Sequence record: NC_028894.1
DNA from: Escherichia phage vB_EcoM_VR20
Length of the DNA stretch: 64,000 nt
Direction: 5' to 3' (one strand)
This document shows, piece by piece, positions 18,021 through 53,619 of this stretch. Position numbers and translations under genes: made by a program. Positions within the stretch are counted from its first letter, which is position 1. Each line of letters begins with the position of its first letter. The notes beneath the pieces are model-generated. The model was not told the origin of the DNA. It did no database searches and saw nothing but the letters and a program-made list of their open reading frames with translations.

Positions 18021-19553
18021 TTATTTTAATCCAGTCTTTGACCAGTCGCCAAATACATCTTCGAATGTGTCTGCATGGTCTTTATCGAAACGGAACCCTT
18101 TGATAATCGGCAGGAACAATGCAACCGTATTATCTTTACGAGTCTCGGAAGTCAACCAACCATTACATTCACAGTCGGCAATCATTCCAACCAATTCACC
18201 TTTACGGGCTTTAACCATCAAGGCTTCACGGTCCATTTCATGACGCTCCTCAATCGGAATAGTAACCCATTTTTTGGTTTTCTTATCTTTAACTTGAGTT
18301 GTGTCTTTAAAACCAGAACCACAGTTATTTGTAATCTTACCACAAGAAGAACGAAGCACAACACCACCAATCTTATTCGGGTCTTTATCGTGCTCGTAAT
18401 ATCCAATGATTTCCATTGCAATGTCAATTACTTCTTTGAACTTGTACAAGTTCTTTGAGCGCTTGTTTTCCCAAATCGATGCCATGTTCTTAAGGATAAT
18501 ACCTTCAAGACCTTCATCCACATATTTCTTATAGATAACCTTCGCTTCATCGAGATTGTTAACAACATGGTTTTCAATCAGAATCATGCGGTCAAAACCA
18601 TGCAGCACCACGTTATCTGCAATCATCTTTTCCAGAACAGCAAAACGCACATCGTATTTCAACGGATTGAGAATCTTAACATCAGAATAGACTTCAATCA
18701 GTGGAACATAATCCCAAACCTGGAATTTCATACAAGCAGCTTCTGTTGCCGAAATAGTTCCTTTCAATGATTTGTTTGCCAGACCATTTGAAAAGGTTCT
18801 TGATTCCGCAGTTTCTTGTGCAGGGGCAATCTCATTTGAATCGTCAAAAAGGAAGCCCAAACCGTCATTCTGGGGAGCTACTTTCTGTTCATGGTATACT
18901 AACTCACCGTCAATCAAAACGCCCTCAGGATGTCTCTCACGCGCTTCACGAGTAGCTTCAATCAATTCCTTTTTAAGGAGGTCAAGCTTGAGGTATTCGT
19001 TGCCAGCTCGGGATAACAATCGAACATCATCCAACTCATCGCCACGAACTTCTGCAAAACACCGAGCGCCGTCGGCTTTCAATTGTGCAAAGGCCGGGAA
19101 CTTAATGTTCTTGGCAATACCGGCTTCATCATAGGAAGAAGCGAGCATCTGCGGTTGTTCTGGAATTAAACCTTTCCAAACCTTATTTGCAATTGATACG
19201 GATGCCCCGCATTCCAGGTCACGCATCATCACACGGCGCAGGACTTCAACATCTGCTTTTTTACCATCGGCAATATAGCCAGATAATTCCTCGATTGCAG
19301 CATTACCTGTTAATTTACGAGAGGCCAATGTGAATTCGATAAAGTCAAGCATATCATCGATATTCAGCATACCAAAGCTTTGAGTCGTTGTTCCAGGTTT
19401 TGGCCATTTCTTGATATAGAACTGGATGCCTTTGGAATATGTCAAACGATACACACGTTTGAGGGTTTCATTGTCAGAATACGATTCCAGAATAGCTTGT
19501 TTCTCTTTAGTAGAATCGGTTGCAGCAATTTCATTTAAAATATCTAAAATCAT
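18021..19553 (-). CDS. 30: ATP-dependent DNA ligase gp30
   Basis: Adenylation motif KADGARC; strong recalled T4 ligase identity; ATG with AGAGGTGA Shine-Dalgarno. Confidence 0.9.
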   Translation of the reverse strand: MILDILNEIAATDSTKEKQAILESYSDNETLKRVYRLTYSKGIQFYIKKWPKPGTTTQSFGMLNIDDMLDFIEFTLASRKLTGNAAIEELSGYIADGKKADVEVLRRVMMRDLECGASVSIANKVWKGLIPEQPQMLASSYDEAGIAKNIKFPAFAQLKADGARCFAEVRGDELDDVRLLSRAGNEYLKLDLLKKELIEATREARERHPEGVLIDGELVYHEQKVAPQNDGLGFLFDDSNEIAPAQETAESRTFSNGLANKSLKGTISATEAACMKFQVWDYVPLIEVYSDVKILNPLKYDVRFAVLEKMIADNVVLHGFDRMILIENHVVNNLDEAKVIYKKYVDEGLEGIILKNMASIWENKRSKNLYKFKEVIDIAMEIIGYYEHDKDPNKIGGVVLRSSCGKITNNCGSGFKDTTQVKDKKTKKWVTIPIEERHEMDREALMVKARKGELVGMIADCECNGWLTSETRKDNTVALFLPIIKGFRFDKDHADTFEDVFGDWSKTGLK

Positions 19554-19562
19554 AATCACCTC

Positions 19563-19841
19563 TTAGTCGTTGGCTCTATTATATGCCACATCTTCCAAAA
19601 GCAAATCCAGACGCTTATGATAAGAGAACACAAATCTCATTCGCCCATCTGGTTTAAACTTAGACATAAAGTGAACATAGATAAACCCTTGCTCAACGCA
19701 TTCACGCCAAACCGGATGGTCTTTGGCTGGGTTAATATCAAACGAGTAATCATGATTCACATGACGAATAAACTGATTAACATGGCCATAATCCATGGTA
19801 GTAGTAGGACCGTAATCAGAAATAGTATGAACGACAAACAT
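19563..19841 (-). CDS. Hypothetical protein (T4 30.1 position)
   Basis: 92 aa; ATGA overlap with the upstream gene. Confidence 0.5.
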   Translation of the reverse strand: MFVVHTISDYGPTTTMDYGHVNQFIRHVNHDYSFDINPAKDHPVWRECVEQGFIYVHFMSKFKPDGRMRFVFSYHKRLDLLLEDVAYNRAND

Positions 19842-20665
19842 CAATTACCCCCTTGGCCACCGGTCGGTTGATTGTACCAATATTCAATGCCAGTACCTAC
19901 GCGTGGACCATATTGATATGGATATGCTGGATTATATCCAGGGGTCCATGGTTGACCTGGTTGCCAGCCTTGCTGCATTTGTTGTTGAAGACGTCGAGTT
20001 TCACGAAACAGTTCGTCCAGTTTACGGAGTTCATCAGGGGTGAATTCTGGTTTGACTGGTTCATCTTTGTGTTTCAGTTTAAGCTGCCCAGCTACATCGT
20101 CCCAATTAAAAACTTTGGAAGCTGTTTTAGGAATAGCATTACGTTCGCCACGGGCCATCCAATAAACCGGGACTTCAAGGATTTCACTCGCATGGTCGCA
20201 ATGGTGTGCAAGGTCATCAATATAACAAACGACATTATATTTGGTCTTCGCTTTCTGGAATAACTCTTCTTTAGAGGCTGTATGGCCGCACATCATCACT
20301 TCTTTAAATGCACCAGGGAACAAAGCATTCAGGTTGAATTGACGATTCAGACGGGCGTCAATGGAATCACCCAGAGCCGTAACAGCCACAAAATCATATT
20401 GCTCTTTGAGGTTATTAATAACCCTTAACGCATCTGCGTAAGGAGACAAATAACGAATAAAATCTGAACAGTTATATTTCTCAATCAACTGTGCTCCCAA
20501 CTCTTCATCACAATTGAACAGTTTACCAGGGGTCACAAATTTTTCATCCTGAATCATCTTAAGGATATGTTCCAGGGGTAAATTATATTTTTGGGCGAAA
20601 TAAGGCAAGCCTGACTGCCATGACAAACATACGCCATCAATATCTGTTAAAATAACGGGTTTCAT
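19841..20665 (-). CDS. HAD-superfamily phosphatase-like protein with Q/P/G/Y-rich tail (T4 30.2 position)
   Basis: N-terminal ILTDIDGV is an HAD motif I, with a later DD motif; low-complexity C-terminal tail. Confidence 0.6.
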   Translation of the reverse strand: MKPVILTDIDGVCLSWQSGLPYFAQKYNLPLEHILKMIQDEKFVTPGKLFNCDEELGAQLIEKYNCSDFIRYLSPYADALRVINNLKEQYDFVAVTALGDSIDARLNRQFNLNALFPGAFKEVMMCGHTASKEELFQKAKTKYNVVCYIDDLAHHCDHASEILEVPVYWMARGERNAIPKTASKVFNWDDVAGQLKLKHKDEPVKPEFTPDELRKLDELFRETRRLQQQMQQGWQPGQPWTPGYNPAYPYQYGPRVGTGIEYWYNQPTGGQGGN

Positions 20666-21120
20666 AATGCATCTCTCAATTGGTTAAGTATGTCAATAAA
20701 TTCTTGTTCAGTCAATATTGTATCATGAACAGTAAGGTGGCTCGCCATCGAATGCTTTAAAACTTTGCCCTTTGTAGCTTGTAATGCGTCGCGGAATCCT
20801 TTGTTTTGGAGCGCTGCTTCAAAATATGCATTTGTATACAACTCTTTCCATGATGTAGAGTATCTTGAAAAGGGAATTCCAAGCCAGAAAAGCGTCCCAC
20901 GGTCCGCAGCTCTAGCATAAGCTCTTCCACTTTGCTGGGCGGCCAATCCGGACATCCCAAATATACGTTTTTGTTGTTCACAATTTCTCACCTTACACCC
21001 TTGCAGGAAGCCTTCAAGACCTCCAAACTGGATGCCCTCCATAACAAAAGGCCATTTAGCAAAGTTACTTAATGCGCATGATGGCCATGGGAAATTGCTT
21101 CTGATTTCTAACTCAGACAT
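20662..21120 (-). CDS. NADAR/YbiA-like protein, tentative (T4 30.3 position)
   Basis: Motifs LSNFAKWP and EGFLQGCK resemble YbiA/NADAR as recalled; not search-verified. Confidence 0.5.
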   Translation of the reverse strand: MSELEIRSNFPWPSCALSNFAKWPFVMEGIQFGGLEGFLQGCKVRNCEQQKRIFGMSGLAAQQSGRAYARAADRGTLFWLGIPFSRYSTSWKELYTNAYFEAALQNKGFRDALQATKGKVLKHSMASHLTVHDTILTEQEFIDILNQLRDAL

Positions 21121-21325
21121 CTTTGACACTTACTACATCAACGTTTGCCCAATGACCATAACCAGGTAGACGGTCTTTAATAGATAATCCACCGTCAGAT
21201 TTCAGCATTTTAATTGTTTTAGTATATGGTTCAATATTTCGGGCCCATGGACTCACGTCAGTTACGCGATAAGTAACTTCAACCATTTCTGTGCCCAAAA
21301 TTTTCTGAATCAGTTTCTTAAACAT
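21113..21325 (-). CDS. Hypothetical protein
   Basis: 70 aa ORF with ATG start in a tightly packed minus-strand array. Confidence 0.5.
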   Translation of the reverse strand: MFKKLIQKILGTEMVEVTYRVTDVSPWARNIEPYTKTIKMLKSDGGLSIKDRLPGYGHWANVDVVSVKDV

Positions 21326-52830: not shown

Positions 52831-53619
52831 ATGGCAATTGTAGGTGTTCCTGGTTGGATTGGACAATCTGCCGTAGATGAAACGGGACAACGTTGGATGG
52901 ATGCCGCTATGCGCGATGTGCGAGTTGCAGTACCCGGTTGGATGGGGTCGATGGCAGGACAATCAAAAGAAATTTATCTATCTATAGGGGCTAATAACTC
53001 TTATGATAGAAACTCCCTTATTAACTGGATGAGGGCTCAAGGTGGTGCGCCTGTAGTTATTACAATCACCGGTAACTTAGTATCCAATAGCACCGGTAAC
53101 GCTTGTTTGGAATTTCCTAGCAATCTTCCTAACGCGTATATTCAACTTATCATTAATAGCGGTGTGACTGTTTATGGCCGAGGAGGTAATGGTTCTACTA
53201 ATGGTTCGGCAGGTGGAAACGGTGGTACAGCTATCCATAACGCAGCCGGAACTAAACTCCGTATTCGTAATAACGGCGCTATTGCCGGTGGTGGCGGTGG
53301 CGGTGGCGCAGTATCATTGCAAAATAGCTACCCGACTAATGGTACATGCGGTGGTGGTGGTGGTAGACCATTTGGCGTAGGTGGCAAAATAGGCTCTGAC
53401 GCTATATTGTCCGGTTCGAATGCGTCTTTAACAGCTGCCGGTACAGGTGGTGCTACAGTCCAATATGGTGGAGGTAATGGCGGTAACGTTGGAGCTGGCG
53501 GTGGACGAGGATGGGGCAAAAATGTTTATACCTCTGCAGGTGGCTCAGCTGGTGCTGCTGTCACTGGCAATGCTCCTAACTGGCAAAACGTAGGAACTAT
53601 TTACGGCTCAAGAGTCTAG
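52831..53619 (+). CDS. 38: gp38 receptor-recognising adhesin, T2/T6 type
   Basis: 262 aa; conserved N-terminus MAIVGVPGWIGQSAV.ETGQRWM, poly-glycine blocks, C-terminal GTIYGSRV. Confidence 0.75.
   Translation: MAIVGVPGWIGQSAVDETGQRWMDAAMRDVRVAVPGWMGSMAGQSKEIYLSIGANNSYDRNSLINWMRAQGGAPVVITITGNLVSNSTGNACLEFPSNLPNAYIQLIINSGVTVYGRGGNGSTNGSAGGNGGTAIHNAAGTKLRIRNNGAIAGGGGGGGAVSLQNSYPTNGTCGGGGGRPFGVGGKIGSDAILSGSNASLTAAGTGGATVQYGGGNGGNVGAGGGRGWGKNVYTSAGGSAGAAVTGNAPNWQNVGTIYGSRV
53287..53307 (+). repeat. GGY codon microsatellite encoding poly-Gly inside gene 38
   Basis: ggtggtggcggtggcggtggc seen directly. Confidence 0.6.

What the first reader, a model, noticed from the sequence alone, without database searches (positions are those of the whole stretch)
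19841..20030. Q/P/G/Y-rich low-complexity tail on the HAD-like protein
The C-terminal ~50 residues (QQQMQQGWQPGQPWTPGYNPAYPYQYGPRVGTGIEYWYNQPTGGQGGN) look like a disordered, aromatic-rich tail, unusual for a small phage enzyme. It could mediate binding to a host partner or phase behaviour.
Basis: seen in the sequence. Interest (0 to 1): 0.35.

Follow-up and report, generated by a model that had tools for sequence, protein, structure and literature searches.

The report
Disordered tail carrying portable phage peptide
The odd Q/P/G/Y-rich end of this T4-type phage enzyme (gp30.2) is a real, selected, predicted-disordered tail. Its conserved part is a short peptide (G-I-E-Y-L/W-x-x-Q-P-T) that also sits near the ends of unrelated small phage proteins, so it looks like a docking tag for a partner that is still unknown.

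Summary
The ORF at 19841-20665 (-) encodes a 274-aa homologue of T4 gp30.2, and its last 48 residues are the most Q/P/G/Y/W/N-rich stretch in the 64-kb window (39 of 48).

It is not a frameshift artefact. The tail is kept in frame across relatives, only in-frame indels are seen, and dN/dS within the genus is 0.00-0.06, as low as in the enzyme core.

The core (residues 1-199) is a HAD-fold phosphatase. All four catalytic motifs are invariant and the closest solved fold is 5'(3')-deoxyribonucleotidase. A helix (210-232) follows, then residues 233-274 with AlphaFold pLDDT below 50 in the second run (below about 65 in the first).

The extreme composition is specific to this lineage. What is conserved are two anchors, W-x-P-G and G-x-G-I-E-Y-(L/W)-x-x-Q-P-T, separated by a spacer of variable length.

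The second anchor recurs, with different codons, in unrelated phage proteins: Salmonella phage 7-11 gp042, a 92-aa protein of Klebsiella phage KP13-16, and many 70-150-aa metagenomic phage proteins. No Pfam family or paper describes it.

Best reading (confidence about 0.5): a flexible tether ending in a portable docking peptide that binds a partner in trans. The partner is unidentified, and the phase-separation idea is not supported by conservation.

The parts
19841..20665 (-). Complete CDS of the T4 gp30.2 homologue (274 aa plus TGA stop)
   Evidence: ORF listing. phrog_420 at E=2e-78. 96-99% identical to the annotated gp30.2 of phages VR7 and TH44. Gene order 30.3-30.2-30.1-30 (ligase), as in T4.
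20069..20665 (-). HAD-fold phosphatase core, residues 1-199 (motif I D8-x-D10, motif II T96, motif III K132, motif IV D150-D151)
   Evidence: AlphaFold pLDDT 92-98. Foldseek top hits are 5'(3')-deoxyribonucleotidases and other HAD hydrolases, E=2e-8. Invariant residues in 106 homologues. Weak sequence hit to 2jao, E=0.22.
20039..20068 (-). Variable linker, residues 200-209 (KDEPVKPEFT)
   Evidence: pLDDT dips to about 70 in the first run and about 52 in the second. Not alignable among tail classes.
19970..20038 (-). Predicted amphipathic helix, residues 210-232 (PDELRKLDELFRETRRLQQQMQQ)
   Evidence: DSSP helix 210-232 in both AlphaFold runs, pLDDT about 90 with the deep alignment. A helix-prone stretch sits at the same place in most tailed homologues.
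19844..19969 (-). Predicted disordered Q/P/G/Y/W-rich tail proper, residues 233-274
   Evidence: pLDDT 40-65 in the first run and 33-45 in the second. Most composition-biased segment in the window. dN/dS 0.00-0.06 within the genus.
19937..19948 (-). Anchor 1: W240-T-P-G243 (family pattern W-[KRTV]-x(0,1)-P-[GD])
   Evidence: Aligned column block in 21 tailed homologues; P242 is nearly invariant. The same W-(K/R)-x-P-G lies just before anchor 2 in phage 7-11 gp042 (PWRNPG) and in the KP13-16 protein (EWKPG).
19898..19936 (-). Variable Y/P-rich spacer, residues 244-256 (YNPAYPYQYGPRV). This is the part that makes the tail look low-complexity.
   Evidence: In-frame 8-aa duplication NPAYPYQY in phage P479 and a 2-aa deletion in VR7. 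Spacer length is 12-27 residues among homologues. P249 is invariant.
19862..19897 (-). Anchor 2: G257-T-G-I-E-Y-W-Y-N-Q-P-T268, the portable motif G-x-G-[IV]-E-Y-[LW]-x-x-[QR]-P-[TK]
   Evidence: G, E and Y are invariant and I, Q, P, T are at least 90% conserved across carriers. Present in 18 of 116 gp30.2 cluster representatives. Also present in unrelated proteins. A profile built from gp30.2 tails alone scores those proteins at E=5e-7 to 1e-2 for a 1.84e9-protein library. Codons differ at synonymous sites between carriers. Occurs once in the window.
19844..19861 (-). Terminal GGQGGN (residues 269-274). Its codons contain the Shine-Dalgarno sequence AAGGGGG (19848-19854) of the downstream gene 30.1.
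   Evidence: Sequence read directly. The last residues vary among relatives: GGQGGN, CGRG, GGRG.
19563..19841 (-). Downstream gene 30.1 (DUF3045). Its ATG (19839-19841) overlaps the 30.2 stop as TGATG.
   Evidence: PF11243 at E=6e-17. Sequence. VR7 annotation gives a 279-nt gene 30.1.

Best explanation
The tail is a functional, intrinsically disordered C-terminal extension of the gp30.2 HAD phosphatase, which is probably a nucleotide phosphatase.

It has three parts: a helix (210-232), then a flexible tether (233-256), then a short docking peptide (257-268, GTGIEYWYNQPT). A second small anchor, W-T-P-G (240-243), sits upstream within the tether.

The anchors are what selection keeps.

The same peptide occurs near the C-termini of unrelated phage proteins that have no HAD domain. 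It therefore most likely acts in trans, as a portable short linear motif that recruits whatever it is attached to onto one common partner. That partner is inferred to be a conserved host macromolecule, since the carrier phages share little else.

Shown here: real coding sequence, purifying selection, predicted disorder, motif conservation, and recurrence of the motif in unrelated proteins.

Inferred only: binding in trans, the host origin of the partner, and the nucleotidase activity of the core.
For: 1. Real and selected. The tail is in frame in relatives; 864 phage records cover at least 80% of the protein. Only in-frame indels are seen. Tail dN/dS is 0.00-0.06 at dS 0.15-0.7, equal to the core.

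2. Disorder. pLDDT is 40-65 for 233-274 with the 106-sequence alignment and below 50 for 234-274 with an alignment of 21 tailed homologues, 19 of which carry the motif. No docking onto the core is predicted.

3. Conserved islands in a variable tail. Alignments A2-A5 show G, E and Y invariant and I, Q, P, T at least 90% conserved, while spacer length varies from 12 to 27 residues.

4. Portability.
- The motif occurs in Salmonella phage 7-11 gp042 (GGIEYWYNQPT, 10 of 10 residues identical to the window).
- It occurs in the 92-aa protein of Klebsiella phage KP13-16 (GGIEYWLNQPK).
- It occurs in more than 25 metagenomic proteins of 70-150 aa. Among the seven compared, the N-terminal parts are mutually unrelated by BLASTP apart from one pair.
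- An exhaustive HMMER scan of 1.84e9 representatives gave 15 hits at E<=1e-3. Fourteen are such small proteins and one is a spurious repeat protein.
- A profile made from gp30.2 tails alone scores the non-gp30.2 carriers (collected in the searches above) at E=5e-7 to 1e-2.

5. Protein-level conservation, not a DNA element. Six of the 10 motif codons differ at the third position between the window and phage 7-11 while the peptide is identical.

6. All carriers lie in phage contexts: terminase, portal, tape measure, CI-like repressor, clusters of small genes.

7. No host chromosomal protein with the motif was found in 185,579 species genomes. The strict pattern gave 0 hits. The W-variant gave 3 hits against about 3 expected by chance, and the one real hit is a relative of phage 7-11 gp042.
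Against: No partner has been identified, and nothing here tests binding.

The motif is dispensable in evolution. About half of gp30.2 homologues have no tail, others carry different tails (…LRAYY, …ALRASF, …LLNKVxANDS), and T2 has a decayed version, GDAGYFNRLT.

Some matches are individually weak: 7-11 gp042 scores E=1 and KP13-16 scores E=16 at Z=1.84e9.

The small metagenomic proteins may be one fast-diverging family rather than independent acquisitions.

Low pLDDT does not prove disorder.
Confidence: 0.5

Rival explanations
1. Portable degron. The peptide is recognised by a host protease or adaptor (Lon, ClpXP, FtsH), so that early phage proteins carrying it are short-lived.
For: The motif sits in a disordered context near the C-termini of unrelated proteins encoded in accessory or early-type gene clusters. 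It is aromatic and hydrophobic (I, Y, L/W), which resembles exposed Lon-type degrons (own knowledge).
Against: It is not at the extreme C-terminus; 2 to 55 residues follow it. Conserved polar positions (E, Q, T) and invariant glycines suggest a specific pocket rather than general hydrophobic recognition. There are no stability data.
Confidence: 0.12
2. Self-association or condensate-forming low-complexity domain. Aromatic 'stickers' (6 Y, 3 W) spaced by G/P/Q drive phase separation or partitioning into host condensates.
For: The composition is extreme, 39 of 48 Q/P/G/Y/W/N, and the region is predicted disordered. It resembles the G/Q/P-rich linker of E. coli SSB, but that comparison is from memory and was not tested.
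Against: The composition is not conserved; orthologous tails score 17-26 of 48. The region is only about 42 residues long. Selection acts on two short sequence-specific anchors, which is unlike composition-driven domains.
Confidence: 0.1
3. Cis-acting nascent-peptide signal. The conserved 12-35 residues act inside the ribosome exit tunnel (arrest or pausing) and tune translation of the tightly coupled downstream gene.
For: Conservation is confined to roughly the last 30-35 residues of otherwise unrelated ORFs. The motif ends in Q-P-T; arrest peptides often involve Pro (own knowledge). The 30.2 stop overlaps the 30.1 start, and the Shine-Dalgarno sequence lies in the last codons.
Against: The distance from motif to stop codon varies from 2 to 55 residues. 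A second anchor with a variable spacer is not expected for a tunnel signal. Overlapping starts are ordinary in phages. No RNA structure or terminator stands out locally.
Confidence: 0.08
4. Intramolecular regulator. The tail folds back on the HAD core as a cap or autoinhibitory element, or mediates homo-oligomerisation.
For: C-terminal extensions regulate some HAD enzymes (own knowledge). Helix 210-232 is predicted with high confidence and may pack on the core.
Against: AlphaFold does not dock residues 233-274, even with an alignment restricted to tailed homologues, almost all motif-bearing. The same motif occurs on proteins without any HAD domain. Many homologues work without a tail.
Confidence: 0.08
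5. Non-functional junk or annotation artefact (frameshift read-through, or sequence constrained only by the overlapping 30.1 ribosome-binding site).
For: Only the last 2-3 codons overlap the Shine-Dalgarno sequence of 30.1. Tails are absent in many homologues.
Against: dN/dS is 0.00-0.06 with many synonymous changes. Indels are in frame. The motif is conserved across genera and across unrelated proteins.
Confidence: 0.02

Closest known systems
T4 gp30.2 (phrog_420), an uncharacterised protein in the gene 30 to rIII region of T-even phages
   Same: Orthologue: 66% identity over 99% of the length to the T4-type protein (P0002), with the same gene order 30.3-30.2-30.1-30. T4's tail carries the same two anchors (WRTPG … GGVEYLYNRPT).
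   Different: The spacer here is much richer in Q/G/P/Y (39 of 48 against 26 of 48) and the motif has W in place of L. No function is published for either; no paper contains 'gp30.2'.
5'(3')-deoxyribonucleotidases cdN/mdN (HAD superfamily, NT5C type), and the phage dTMP phosphatase Dtm of dU-DNA phages (PMC12697855)
   Same: Best structural match of the core (2jao E=2e-8; 2i7d, 1q92, 4yih also listed) and a DxDxV nucleophile motif. There is precedent for a phage enzyme modelled as mdN-like that dephosphorylates a dNMP.
   Different: Only 15-16% identity, and no Pfam or NCBIfam hit. The substrate is unknown. No disordered C-terminal tail is apparent on those enzymes: the matched chains are about 190-200 residues and align with the core.
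'Disordered linker plus conserved terminal peptide' designs of bacterial hub proteins: SSB (G/Q/P-rich linker plus acidic tip DDDIPF) and FtsZ (C-terminal linker plus the DIPAFLRKQ peptide)
   Same: The architecture is the same: folded domain, composition-biased linker of variable length, then a short conserved peptide near the C-terminus. By analogy the peptide binds partners. This comparison is from own knowledge and was not tested here.
   Different: The peptide sequence is unrelated (no acidic tip, no IPxFLR register). Here the peptide is spread over unrelated phage proteins rather than being the hallmark of one family. No partner is known.
Viral short linear motifs (SLiMs) that dock onto host proteins, well documented for eukaryotic viruses (e.g. 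reviews PMC10694346 and PMC7730420, found)
   Same: A short conserved island in a disordered region, recurring in unrelated viral proteins, evolutionarily labile, and flanked by variable sequence.
   Different: These are bacteriophage proteins. No cellular protein carrying the same motif was found, so there is no evidence of mimicry of a host motif.
Salmonella phage 7-11 gp042 (phrog_38244) and the 92-aa protein of Klebsiella phage KP13-16 (UYL04520.1)
   Same: Both share the peptide W-(K/R)-x-P-G … G-G-I-E-Y-W-(Y/L)-N-Q-P-(T/K) within a G/P-rich segment.
   Different: The remainder is entirely different: a helical N-terminus plus a CPxCG…HFC zinc knuckle in one, an acidic small protein in the other. 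Neither has a HAD domain. In 7-11 gp042 the motif is followed by 31 more residues. Both are of unknown function.

Membership tests
T4 gp30.2 family (phrog_420) | Full-length profile match and conserved synteny (30.3-30.2-30.1-ligase) | tested here: met
   phrog_420 at E=2e-78, covering residues 1-268. Neighbours are PF08010, PF11243 and an ATP-dependent DNA ligase. VR7 and SP18 annotate the gene as gp30.2.
HAD superfamily phosphatase | Rossmannoid fold | tested here: met
   AlphaFold core pLDDT above 90. 104 PDB matches at E<=1e-3; the 50 listed are all HAD hydrolases.
HAD superfamily phosphatase | Four catalytic motifs: DxDx(T/V), S/T, K, DD | tested here: met
   D8, D10, K132, D150 and D151 are invariant and T96 is at least 90% conserved in 106 homologues.
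HAD superfamily phosphatase | Mg2+-dependent phosphoryl transfer activity | not testable with these tools
   Needs an enzyme assay.
5'(3')-deoxyribonucleotidase (NT5C, cdN/mdN type) | Sequence-profile membership | tested here: not met
   No Pfam or NCBIfam family at E<=0.01 and E<=1 respectively. The PDB profile search gives 2jao only at E=0.22.
5'(3')-deoxyribonucleotidase (NT5C, cdN/mdN type) | Closest fold and cap type | tested here: inconclusive
   2jao is rank 1 (E=2e-8, TM 0.49/0.65), but other HAD subfamilies score nearly the same.
Short linear motif in an intrinsically disordered region | Located in a region predicted disordered | tested here: met
   pLDDT is about 40-65 for 233-274 in the first AlphaFold run and below 50 for 234-274 in the second. 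Only a 4-residue helical turn is predicted, at 261-264.
Short linear motif in an intrinsically disordered region | Short conserved island flanked by fast-evolving sequence of variable length | tested here: met
   Alignments A2-A5; spacer of 12-27 residues; between-genus dN/dS in the tail is 0.45-0.69 against 0.03 in the core, while the anchors persist.
Short linear motif in an intrinsically disordered region | Recurrence in otherwise unrelated proteins | tested here: met
   Found in 7-11 gp042, the KP13-16 protein and several small-protein groups with dissimilar N-termini. Non-circular profile E-values are 5e-7 to 1e-2.
Short linear motif in an intrinsically disordered region | Defined binding partner or domain | not testable with these tools
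   Complex prediction with host proteins could not be submitted. Needs a pull-down or AlphaFold-Multimer screen.
Prion-like or phase-separating low-complexity domain | Compositional bias conserved among orthologues and sufficient length | tested here: not met
   39 of 48 biased residues here against 17-26 of 48 in orthologous tails. The biased segment is about 42 residues.
SSB-type tail (disordered linker plus acidic tip) | Acidic C-terminal tip (D-D-D-I-P-F-like) and an OB-fold core | tested here: not met
   The tail ends in GGQGGN and the core is a HAD fold.
Ribosome arrest peptide | Demonstrated elongation or termination arrest that controls a downstream gene | not testable with these tools
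   Only indirect observations: the motif-to-stop distance varies from 2 to 55 residues.

The most novel reading that the evidence does not exclude
G-x-G-I-E-Y-(L/W)-x-x-Q-P-T, often preceded by W-x-P-G, is a previously undescribed portable docking peptide of tailed phages. Under this reading, unrelated early or accessory proteins have each acquired it to reach one conserved host hub. The carriers are a HAD phosphatase in T4-like phages, a zinc-knuckle protein in phiEco32-like phages, and dozens of small proteins in sipho- and myophages. The motif could then serve as a handle to find that hub and to assign a cellular address to many 'hypothetical' phage proteins.
Probability: 0.35. Interest if true: 0.75.

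Novelty: new variant of a known kind. Interest (0 to 1): 0.5.

Why it matters
gp30.2 is conserved in over a thousand sequenced T4-like phages, including T4 itself, and has no assigned function.

This analysis makes three points that can be tested directly:
- The tail is selected.
- Its conserved part is a 12-residue peptide.
- The same peptide is present on unrelated phage proteins.

A biotinylated peptide or a GFP-tail fusion could reveal the partner in one experiment. If the partner is a host hub, the motif would be one of few short-linear-motif systems described for bacteriophages. It would also annotate a whole set of small phage proteins of unknown function by where they go.

If no partner exists, the finding reduces to an ordinary disordered extension on an accessory enzyme.

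Tried and rejected
- **Family libraries.** Pfam, NCBIfam and PADLOC gave nothing for the protein. Pfam gave nothing for ten motif carriers and PADLOC nothing for the four tested. PHROGs gave only 'unknown function' families.
- **Literature.** No paper contains 'gp30.2'. Searches for the peptide strings returned one irrelevant paper, and '30.2 + phage T4 + HAD' returned only numeric coincidences.
- **DNA-level explanations.** There is no tandem repeat. No promoter- or terminator-like site exceeds the shuffle expectation. A conserved DNA element is rejected because the codons differ at synonymous sites.
- **Frameshift artefact.** Rejected.
- **Intramolecular docking.** A second AlphaFold run with tailed, almost all motif-bearing homologues still left 234-274 below pLDDT 50.
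- **Host mimicry.** The strict DNA pattern found 0 hits in GTDB species genomes. The W-variant found 3 hits, at chance level, and none is a host chromosomal protein with the motif in context.
- **Second copy in the phage.** None in the window, and one place per genome in relatives.
- **Link to DNA ligase.** The motif gene is adjacent to an ATP-dependent ligase in T4-likes and in phage 7-11, but not in the flanks examined for KP13-16 or for the other phage contigs. I treat this as unproven.
- **Resemblances recalled from memory.** The FtsZ C-terminal peptide, the GroES mobile loop, SurA Ar-x-Ar peptides and clamp-binding motifs do not fit the register of the conserved residues. They were not pursued.
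- **First tail-profile search.** The search with A2 oddly did not list full-length gp30.2 proteins, only fragments and small proteins, so that tool's candidate step is not exhaustive. The exhaustive HMMER scan was used instead.
Full report
**What is there**

The finding lies at the 3' end of the ORF at 19841..20665 on the minus strand (274 aa). They are residues 227-274, coordinates 19844-19987, with the stop codon TGA at 19841-19843.

The window is from a T4-like phage of the VR7/SP18 group (genus Gaprivervirus). The 3.2 kb around the gene is 94-97% identical at the nucleotide level to about 30 such genomes.

The gene order on the minus strand is:
- gp30.3 (PF08010), 20662-21129
- this gene
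- gp30.1 (DUF3045), 19563-19841
- ATP-dependent DNA ligase gp30, 18021-19559

The protein is the orthologue of T4 gp30.2. phrog_420 matches at E=2e-78, it is annotated as gp30.2 in VR7 and SP18, and it is 66% identical to the T4-type protein.

**Is the bias more than chance?**

39 of the 48 residues are Q, P, G, Y, W or N. That is the most extreme value among all 139 ORFs of at least 80 aa in the window. The runner-up, at 30 of 48, is a glycine-rich ORF at 52831-53619.

Given the 22% frequency of these residues in homologue cores, the binomial probability is 8e-18. No DNA tandem repeat underlies it.

**Is it an artefact?**

No, for three reasons.
- tblastn finds the protein in 1,438 phage records, and 864 of them cover at least 80% of it, tail included.
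- Among five Gaprivervirus genes the differences in the tail are in frame. P479 has an 8-aa duplication NPAYPYQY, VR7 has a 2-aa deletion, and the last few residues vary.
- Nei-Gojobori counts for residues 233-274 give dN/dS of 0.00-0.06 at dS 0.15-0.7. That is the same as for the enzyme core, 0.01-0.06.

So the tail is translated in this frame and is under purifying selection within the genus. Between genera (against T2) the tail evolves fast, with dN/dS of 0.45-0.69, while the core stays at about 0.03.

**Anatomy**

AlphaFold2 with 106 homologues gives a confident core, residues 1-199 at pLDDT 92-98. A dip follows at 200-209. A helix at 210-232 has pLDDT of about 90. After that, pLDDT falls to 65, 55, 43, 48 and 40 per ten-residue block.

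A second run used only 21 tailed homologues, 19 of them motif-bearing. It again left 234-274 below 50, with only a four-residue helical turn at 261-264.

The core is a HAD fold.
- Foldseek's best PDB hit is mouse cytosolic 5'(3')-deoxyribonucleotidase (2jao, E=2e-8). Other HAD hydrolases follow closely.
- A profile search of PDB sequences finds the same protein weakly, at E=0.22.
- The HAD catalytic residues D8, D10, K132, D150 and D151 are invariant and T96 is nearly so.
- Pfam and NCBIfam have no model for the protein.

**Tail diversity in the family**

Among 116 cluster representatives, the extension beyond the core has these lengths:

| Extension length (aa) | Number of representatives |
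|---|---|
| 15 or fewer | 51 |
| 16-40 | 9 |
| 41-100 | 48 |
| more than 100 | 8 |

Several tail classes exist. The class to which this protein and T4 belong has 18 representatives. It covers phages of Escherichia, Klebsiella, Enterobacter, Citrobacter and Cronobacter.

This class shows a conserved layout: helix, then W-[KRTV]-x-P-[GD], then a spacer of 12-27 residues with one invariant proline, then G-x-G-[IV]-E-Y-[LW]-x-x-[QR]-P-T, then 6-10 variable residues.

The extreme Q/G/P/Y content is peculiar to the Gaprivervirus spacer. The corresponding 48 residues of T4 score 26 and those of other genera score 17-23. So the 'low complexity' that drew attention is the plastic spacer, and the selected features are the two anchors.

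In window coordinates:
- anchor 1 (W240-G243) is 19937-19948
- the spacer is 19898-19936
- anchor 2 (G257-T268) is 19862-19897

The final codons (GGQGGN) contain the Shine-Dalgarno sequence AAGGGGG (19848-19854) of gene 30.1. The ATG of 30.1 overlaps the 30.2 stop as TGATG.

**The unexpected result: the motif is portable**

A profile of the tails alone retrieved small proteins with unrelated N-terminal parts that end in …GTGIEYL(K/R/S)(R/H)QPTSK.

A strict back-translated DNA pattern has about 0.001 chance hits expected in IMG/VR. It found only gp30.2 genes in viral contigs, nothing in 185,579 species genomes, and four metagenomic contigs encoding such small proteins.

An exhaustive HMMER scan of 1.84 billion representatives with the 35-position motif profile gave 15 hits at E<=1e-3. 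Fourteen are proteins of 71-152 aa with diverse N-termini. The fifteenth is a spurious repeat protein. A last word-indexed search added more carriers.

In cultured phages the motif occurs in two further contexts:
- Salmonella phage 7-11 gp042, in the family Grimontviridae. It has 123 aa, a helical N-terminus and a CPxCG…HFC knuckle, followed by …PWRNPGAGGIEYWYNQPTAIGGQ…. The ten residues GIEYWYNQPT are identical to the window.
- A 92-aa protein of Klebsiella phage KP13-16, in the subfamily Stephanstirmvirinae, ending …EWKPGSFGGIEYWLNQPKSQVIGFD.

Both also carry the W-(K/R)-x-P-G anchor.

The N-terminal parts of seven of the small proteins, compared all against all by BLASTP, show no similarity to each other apart from one pair.

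To avoid circularity I built an HMM from the 14 gp30.2 tails only. I scored the non-gp30.2 proteins with the library size as Z:

| Protein(s) | E-value at Z=1.84e9 |
|---|---|
| P0126 | 5e-7 |
| P0120 | 7e-5 |
| P0119 | 2e-4 |
| P0121 | 8e-4 |
| seven more | 0.005-0.075 |
| 7-11 gp042 | 1 |
| KP13-16 protein | 16 |

The last two are weak at this Z. They would be about 3e-3 and 0.04 for a library the size of the cultured-phage proteome (my estimate).

The codons of the shared peptide differ at synonymous positions. Six of ten differ between the window and phage 7-11. So the conservation is at the protein level, not a DNA element or a recent DNA transfer.

Every carrier sits in a phage context: terminase, portal, tape measure, CI-like repressor, clusters of small genes. 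GC content ranges from 39% to 56%.

No host chromosomal protein with the motif turned up. Each Gaprivervirus genome has one copy only.

**Interpretation**

A short, strongly conserved island lies in a region predicted disordered. It is flanked by sequence that is free to change in length and composition, and it recurs in unrelated proteins. That is the signature of a short linear motif.

Because the motif also occurs on proteins with no HAD domain, an intramolecular role specific to the phosphatase is unlikely. AlphaFold does not dock it onto the core either.

I therefore read the tail as a flexible tether that presents a docking peptide to a partner in trans. The carrier phages are otherwise unrelated, so a conserved host component is the most economical candidate. 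That step, and binding itself, are inferences.

The core's resemblance to cdN/mdN suggests that what is being tethered is a nucleotide phosphatase. A recent report describes a phage dTMP phosphatase modelled as mdN-like (PMC12697855). The substrate of gp30.2 is not established.

**Rivals**

- A portable degron fits the location and context. It fits less well with the conserved polar and glycine positions, and the motif is not at the very end.
- A condensate-forming low-complexity domain fits the composition here. It fails the conservation test.
- A nascent-chain (ribosome-tunnel) signal would explain conservation of only the last 30-35 residues of unrelated ORFs. But the motif-to-stop distance ranges from 2 to 55 residues, and the second anchor with a variable spacer is not expected.
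- Junk or a frameshift is excluded.

The motif is also evolutionarily dispensable. Many gp30.2 homologues lack it, others carry different C-terminal peptides, and T2 has a decayed version (GDAGYFNRLT). This argues for an accessory, host- or condition-specific role.

**Novelty and verdict**

The protein itself is an ordinary member of the uncharacterised gp30.2 family. Disordered tether-plus-peptide tails are a known design, as in SSB and FtsZ (own knowledge).

What appears new is the peptide: no Pfam family, PHROG annotation or paper describes it. It is also spread over unrelated phage proteins. I rate this a new variant of a known kind, of moderate interest (0.5), with a clear experimental path to finding the partner.

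Noticed in passing
P0149 (metagenomic, 70 aa): A chimeric protein. The N-terminal part matches T4 gp30.7 (PF06919) and is fused in frame to the last 20 residues of a T4-type gp30.2 tail (…ENGIEYLYNRPTGGDNIFQGAF). It looks like a natural deletion from 30.7 to 30.2 that keeps exactly the motif.
   Followed up: no
P0022 (302 aa): A gp30.2 core fused to a DUF3045 (gp30.1) domain in place of the tail, on a 1.4-kb contig. It is either a Rosetta-stone hint that 30.2 and 30.1 work together, or a frameshift or assembly error.
   Followed up: no
L002 1501-2333 (T4 clone T4_7t1, OL964745.1): In this laboratory 'mutant T4' record, gene 30.2 is annotated as three overlapping fragments, and the tblastn match came in three pieces. 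This suggests frameshifts, and hence that the gene is dispensable in the laboratory, or else sequencing errors.
   Followed up: no
L023 1908-3360 (Salmonella phage 7-11): The motif-bearing gp042 overlaps the end of an ATP-dependent DNA ligase gene. In T4-like phages the motif-bearing gp30.2 is also two genes from the ligase. No ligase lies in the flanks examined for the other carriers, so the link is unproven.
   Followed up: partly
L005 (phage P479) and L001 (VR7), tail region; Close relatives differ by an in-frame 24-nt duplication (NPAYPYQY repeated) and by a 2-codon deletion in the spacer. This is slippage-type length variation confined to the region between the two anchors.
   Followed up: yes
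L003 (phage T2 record PV958097.1), tail; T2 has GDAGYFNRLT where T4 has GGVEYLYNRPT. The invariant E and P are lost while the rest of the tail is T4-like, so the motif seems to have decayed in this T2 stock.
   Followed up: no
window 20757-20981 (-), inside gp30.3 (20662-21129): A 74-aa GTG-initiated ORF in another frame lies nested in gene 30.3. The corresponding ORF is annotated as 30.3' in VR7.
   Followed up: no
window 52831-53619 (+): A 262-aa ORF has a glycine-rich run (GGATVQYGGGNGGNVGAGGGRGWGK…). It is the second most composition-biased segment in the window, and it resembles the glycine-rich motifs of T-even gp38 adhesins (from memory, not tested).
   Followed up: no
L027 (NZ_JANLCJ010000647.1, 'Herbiconiux daphne' scaffold647, 568 bp): A 46%-GC scaffold, assigned to an actinobacterial genus that I recall as high-GC, encodes a relative of phage 7-11 gp042 (…CPACGCPDGVPHFC…STGIEYWMNQPTS…). 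It probably reflects phage DNA contaminating the assembly.
   Followed up: no
P0063, P0066 (Yersinia phage phiR1-RT type): These gp30.2 homologues carry a quite different 116-132-aa C-terminal extension (…IIKHPKGFGWVY…), which looks like a folded domain rather than a disordered tail. Other tail classes end in …LRAYY, …ALRASF or …LLNKVxANDS and may be alternative terminal peptides.
   Followed up: no
P0119-P0121, P0124, P0127-P0146: The small metagenomic carriers share a longer constant C-terminal module, (E)QGLHLTGGILPxSEPLSxPKPGTGIEYLSHQPTSK, joined to highly diverse N-terminal halves. The reason for this variable-head, constant-tail pattern is unexplained.
   Followed up: partly
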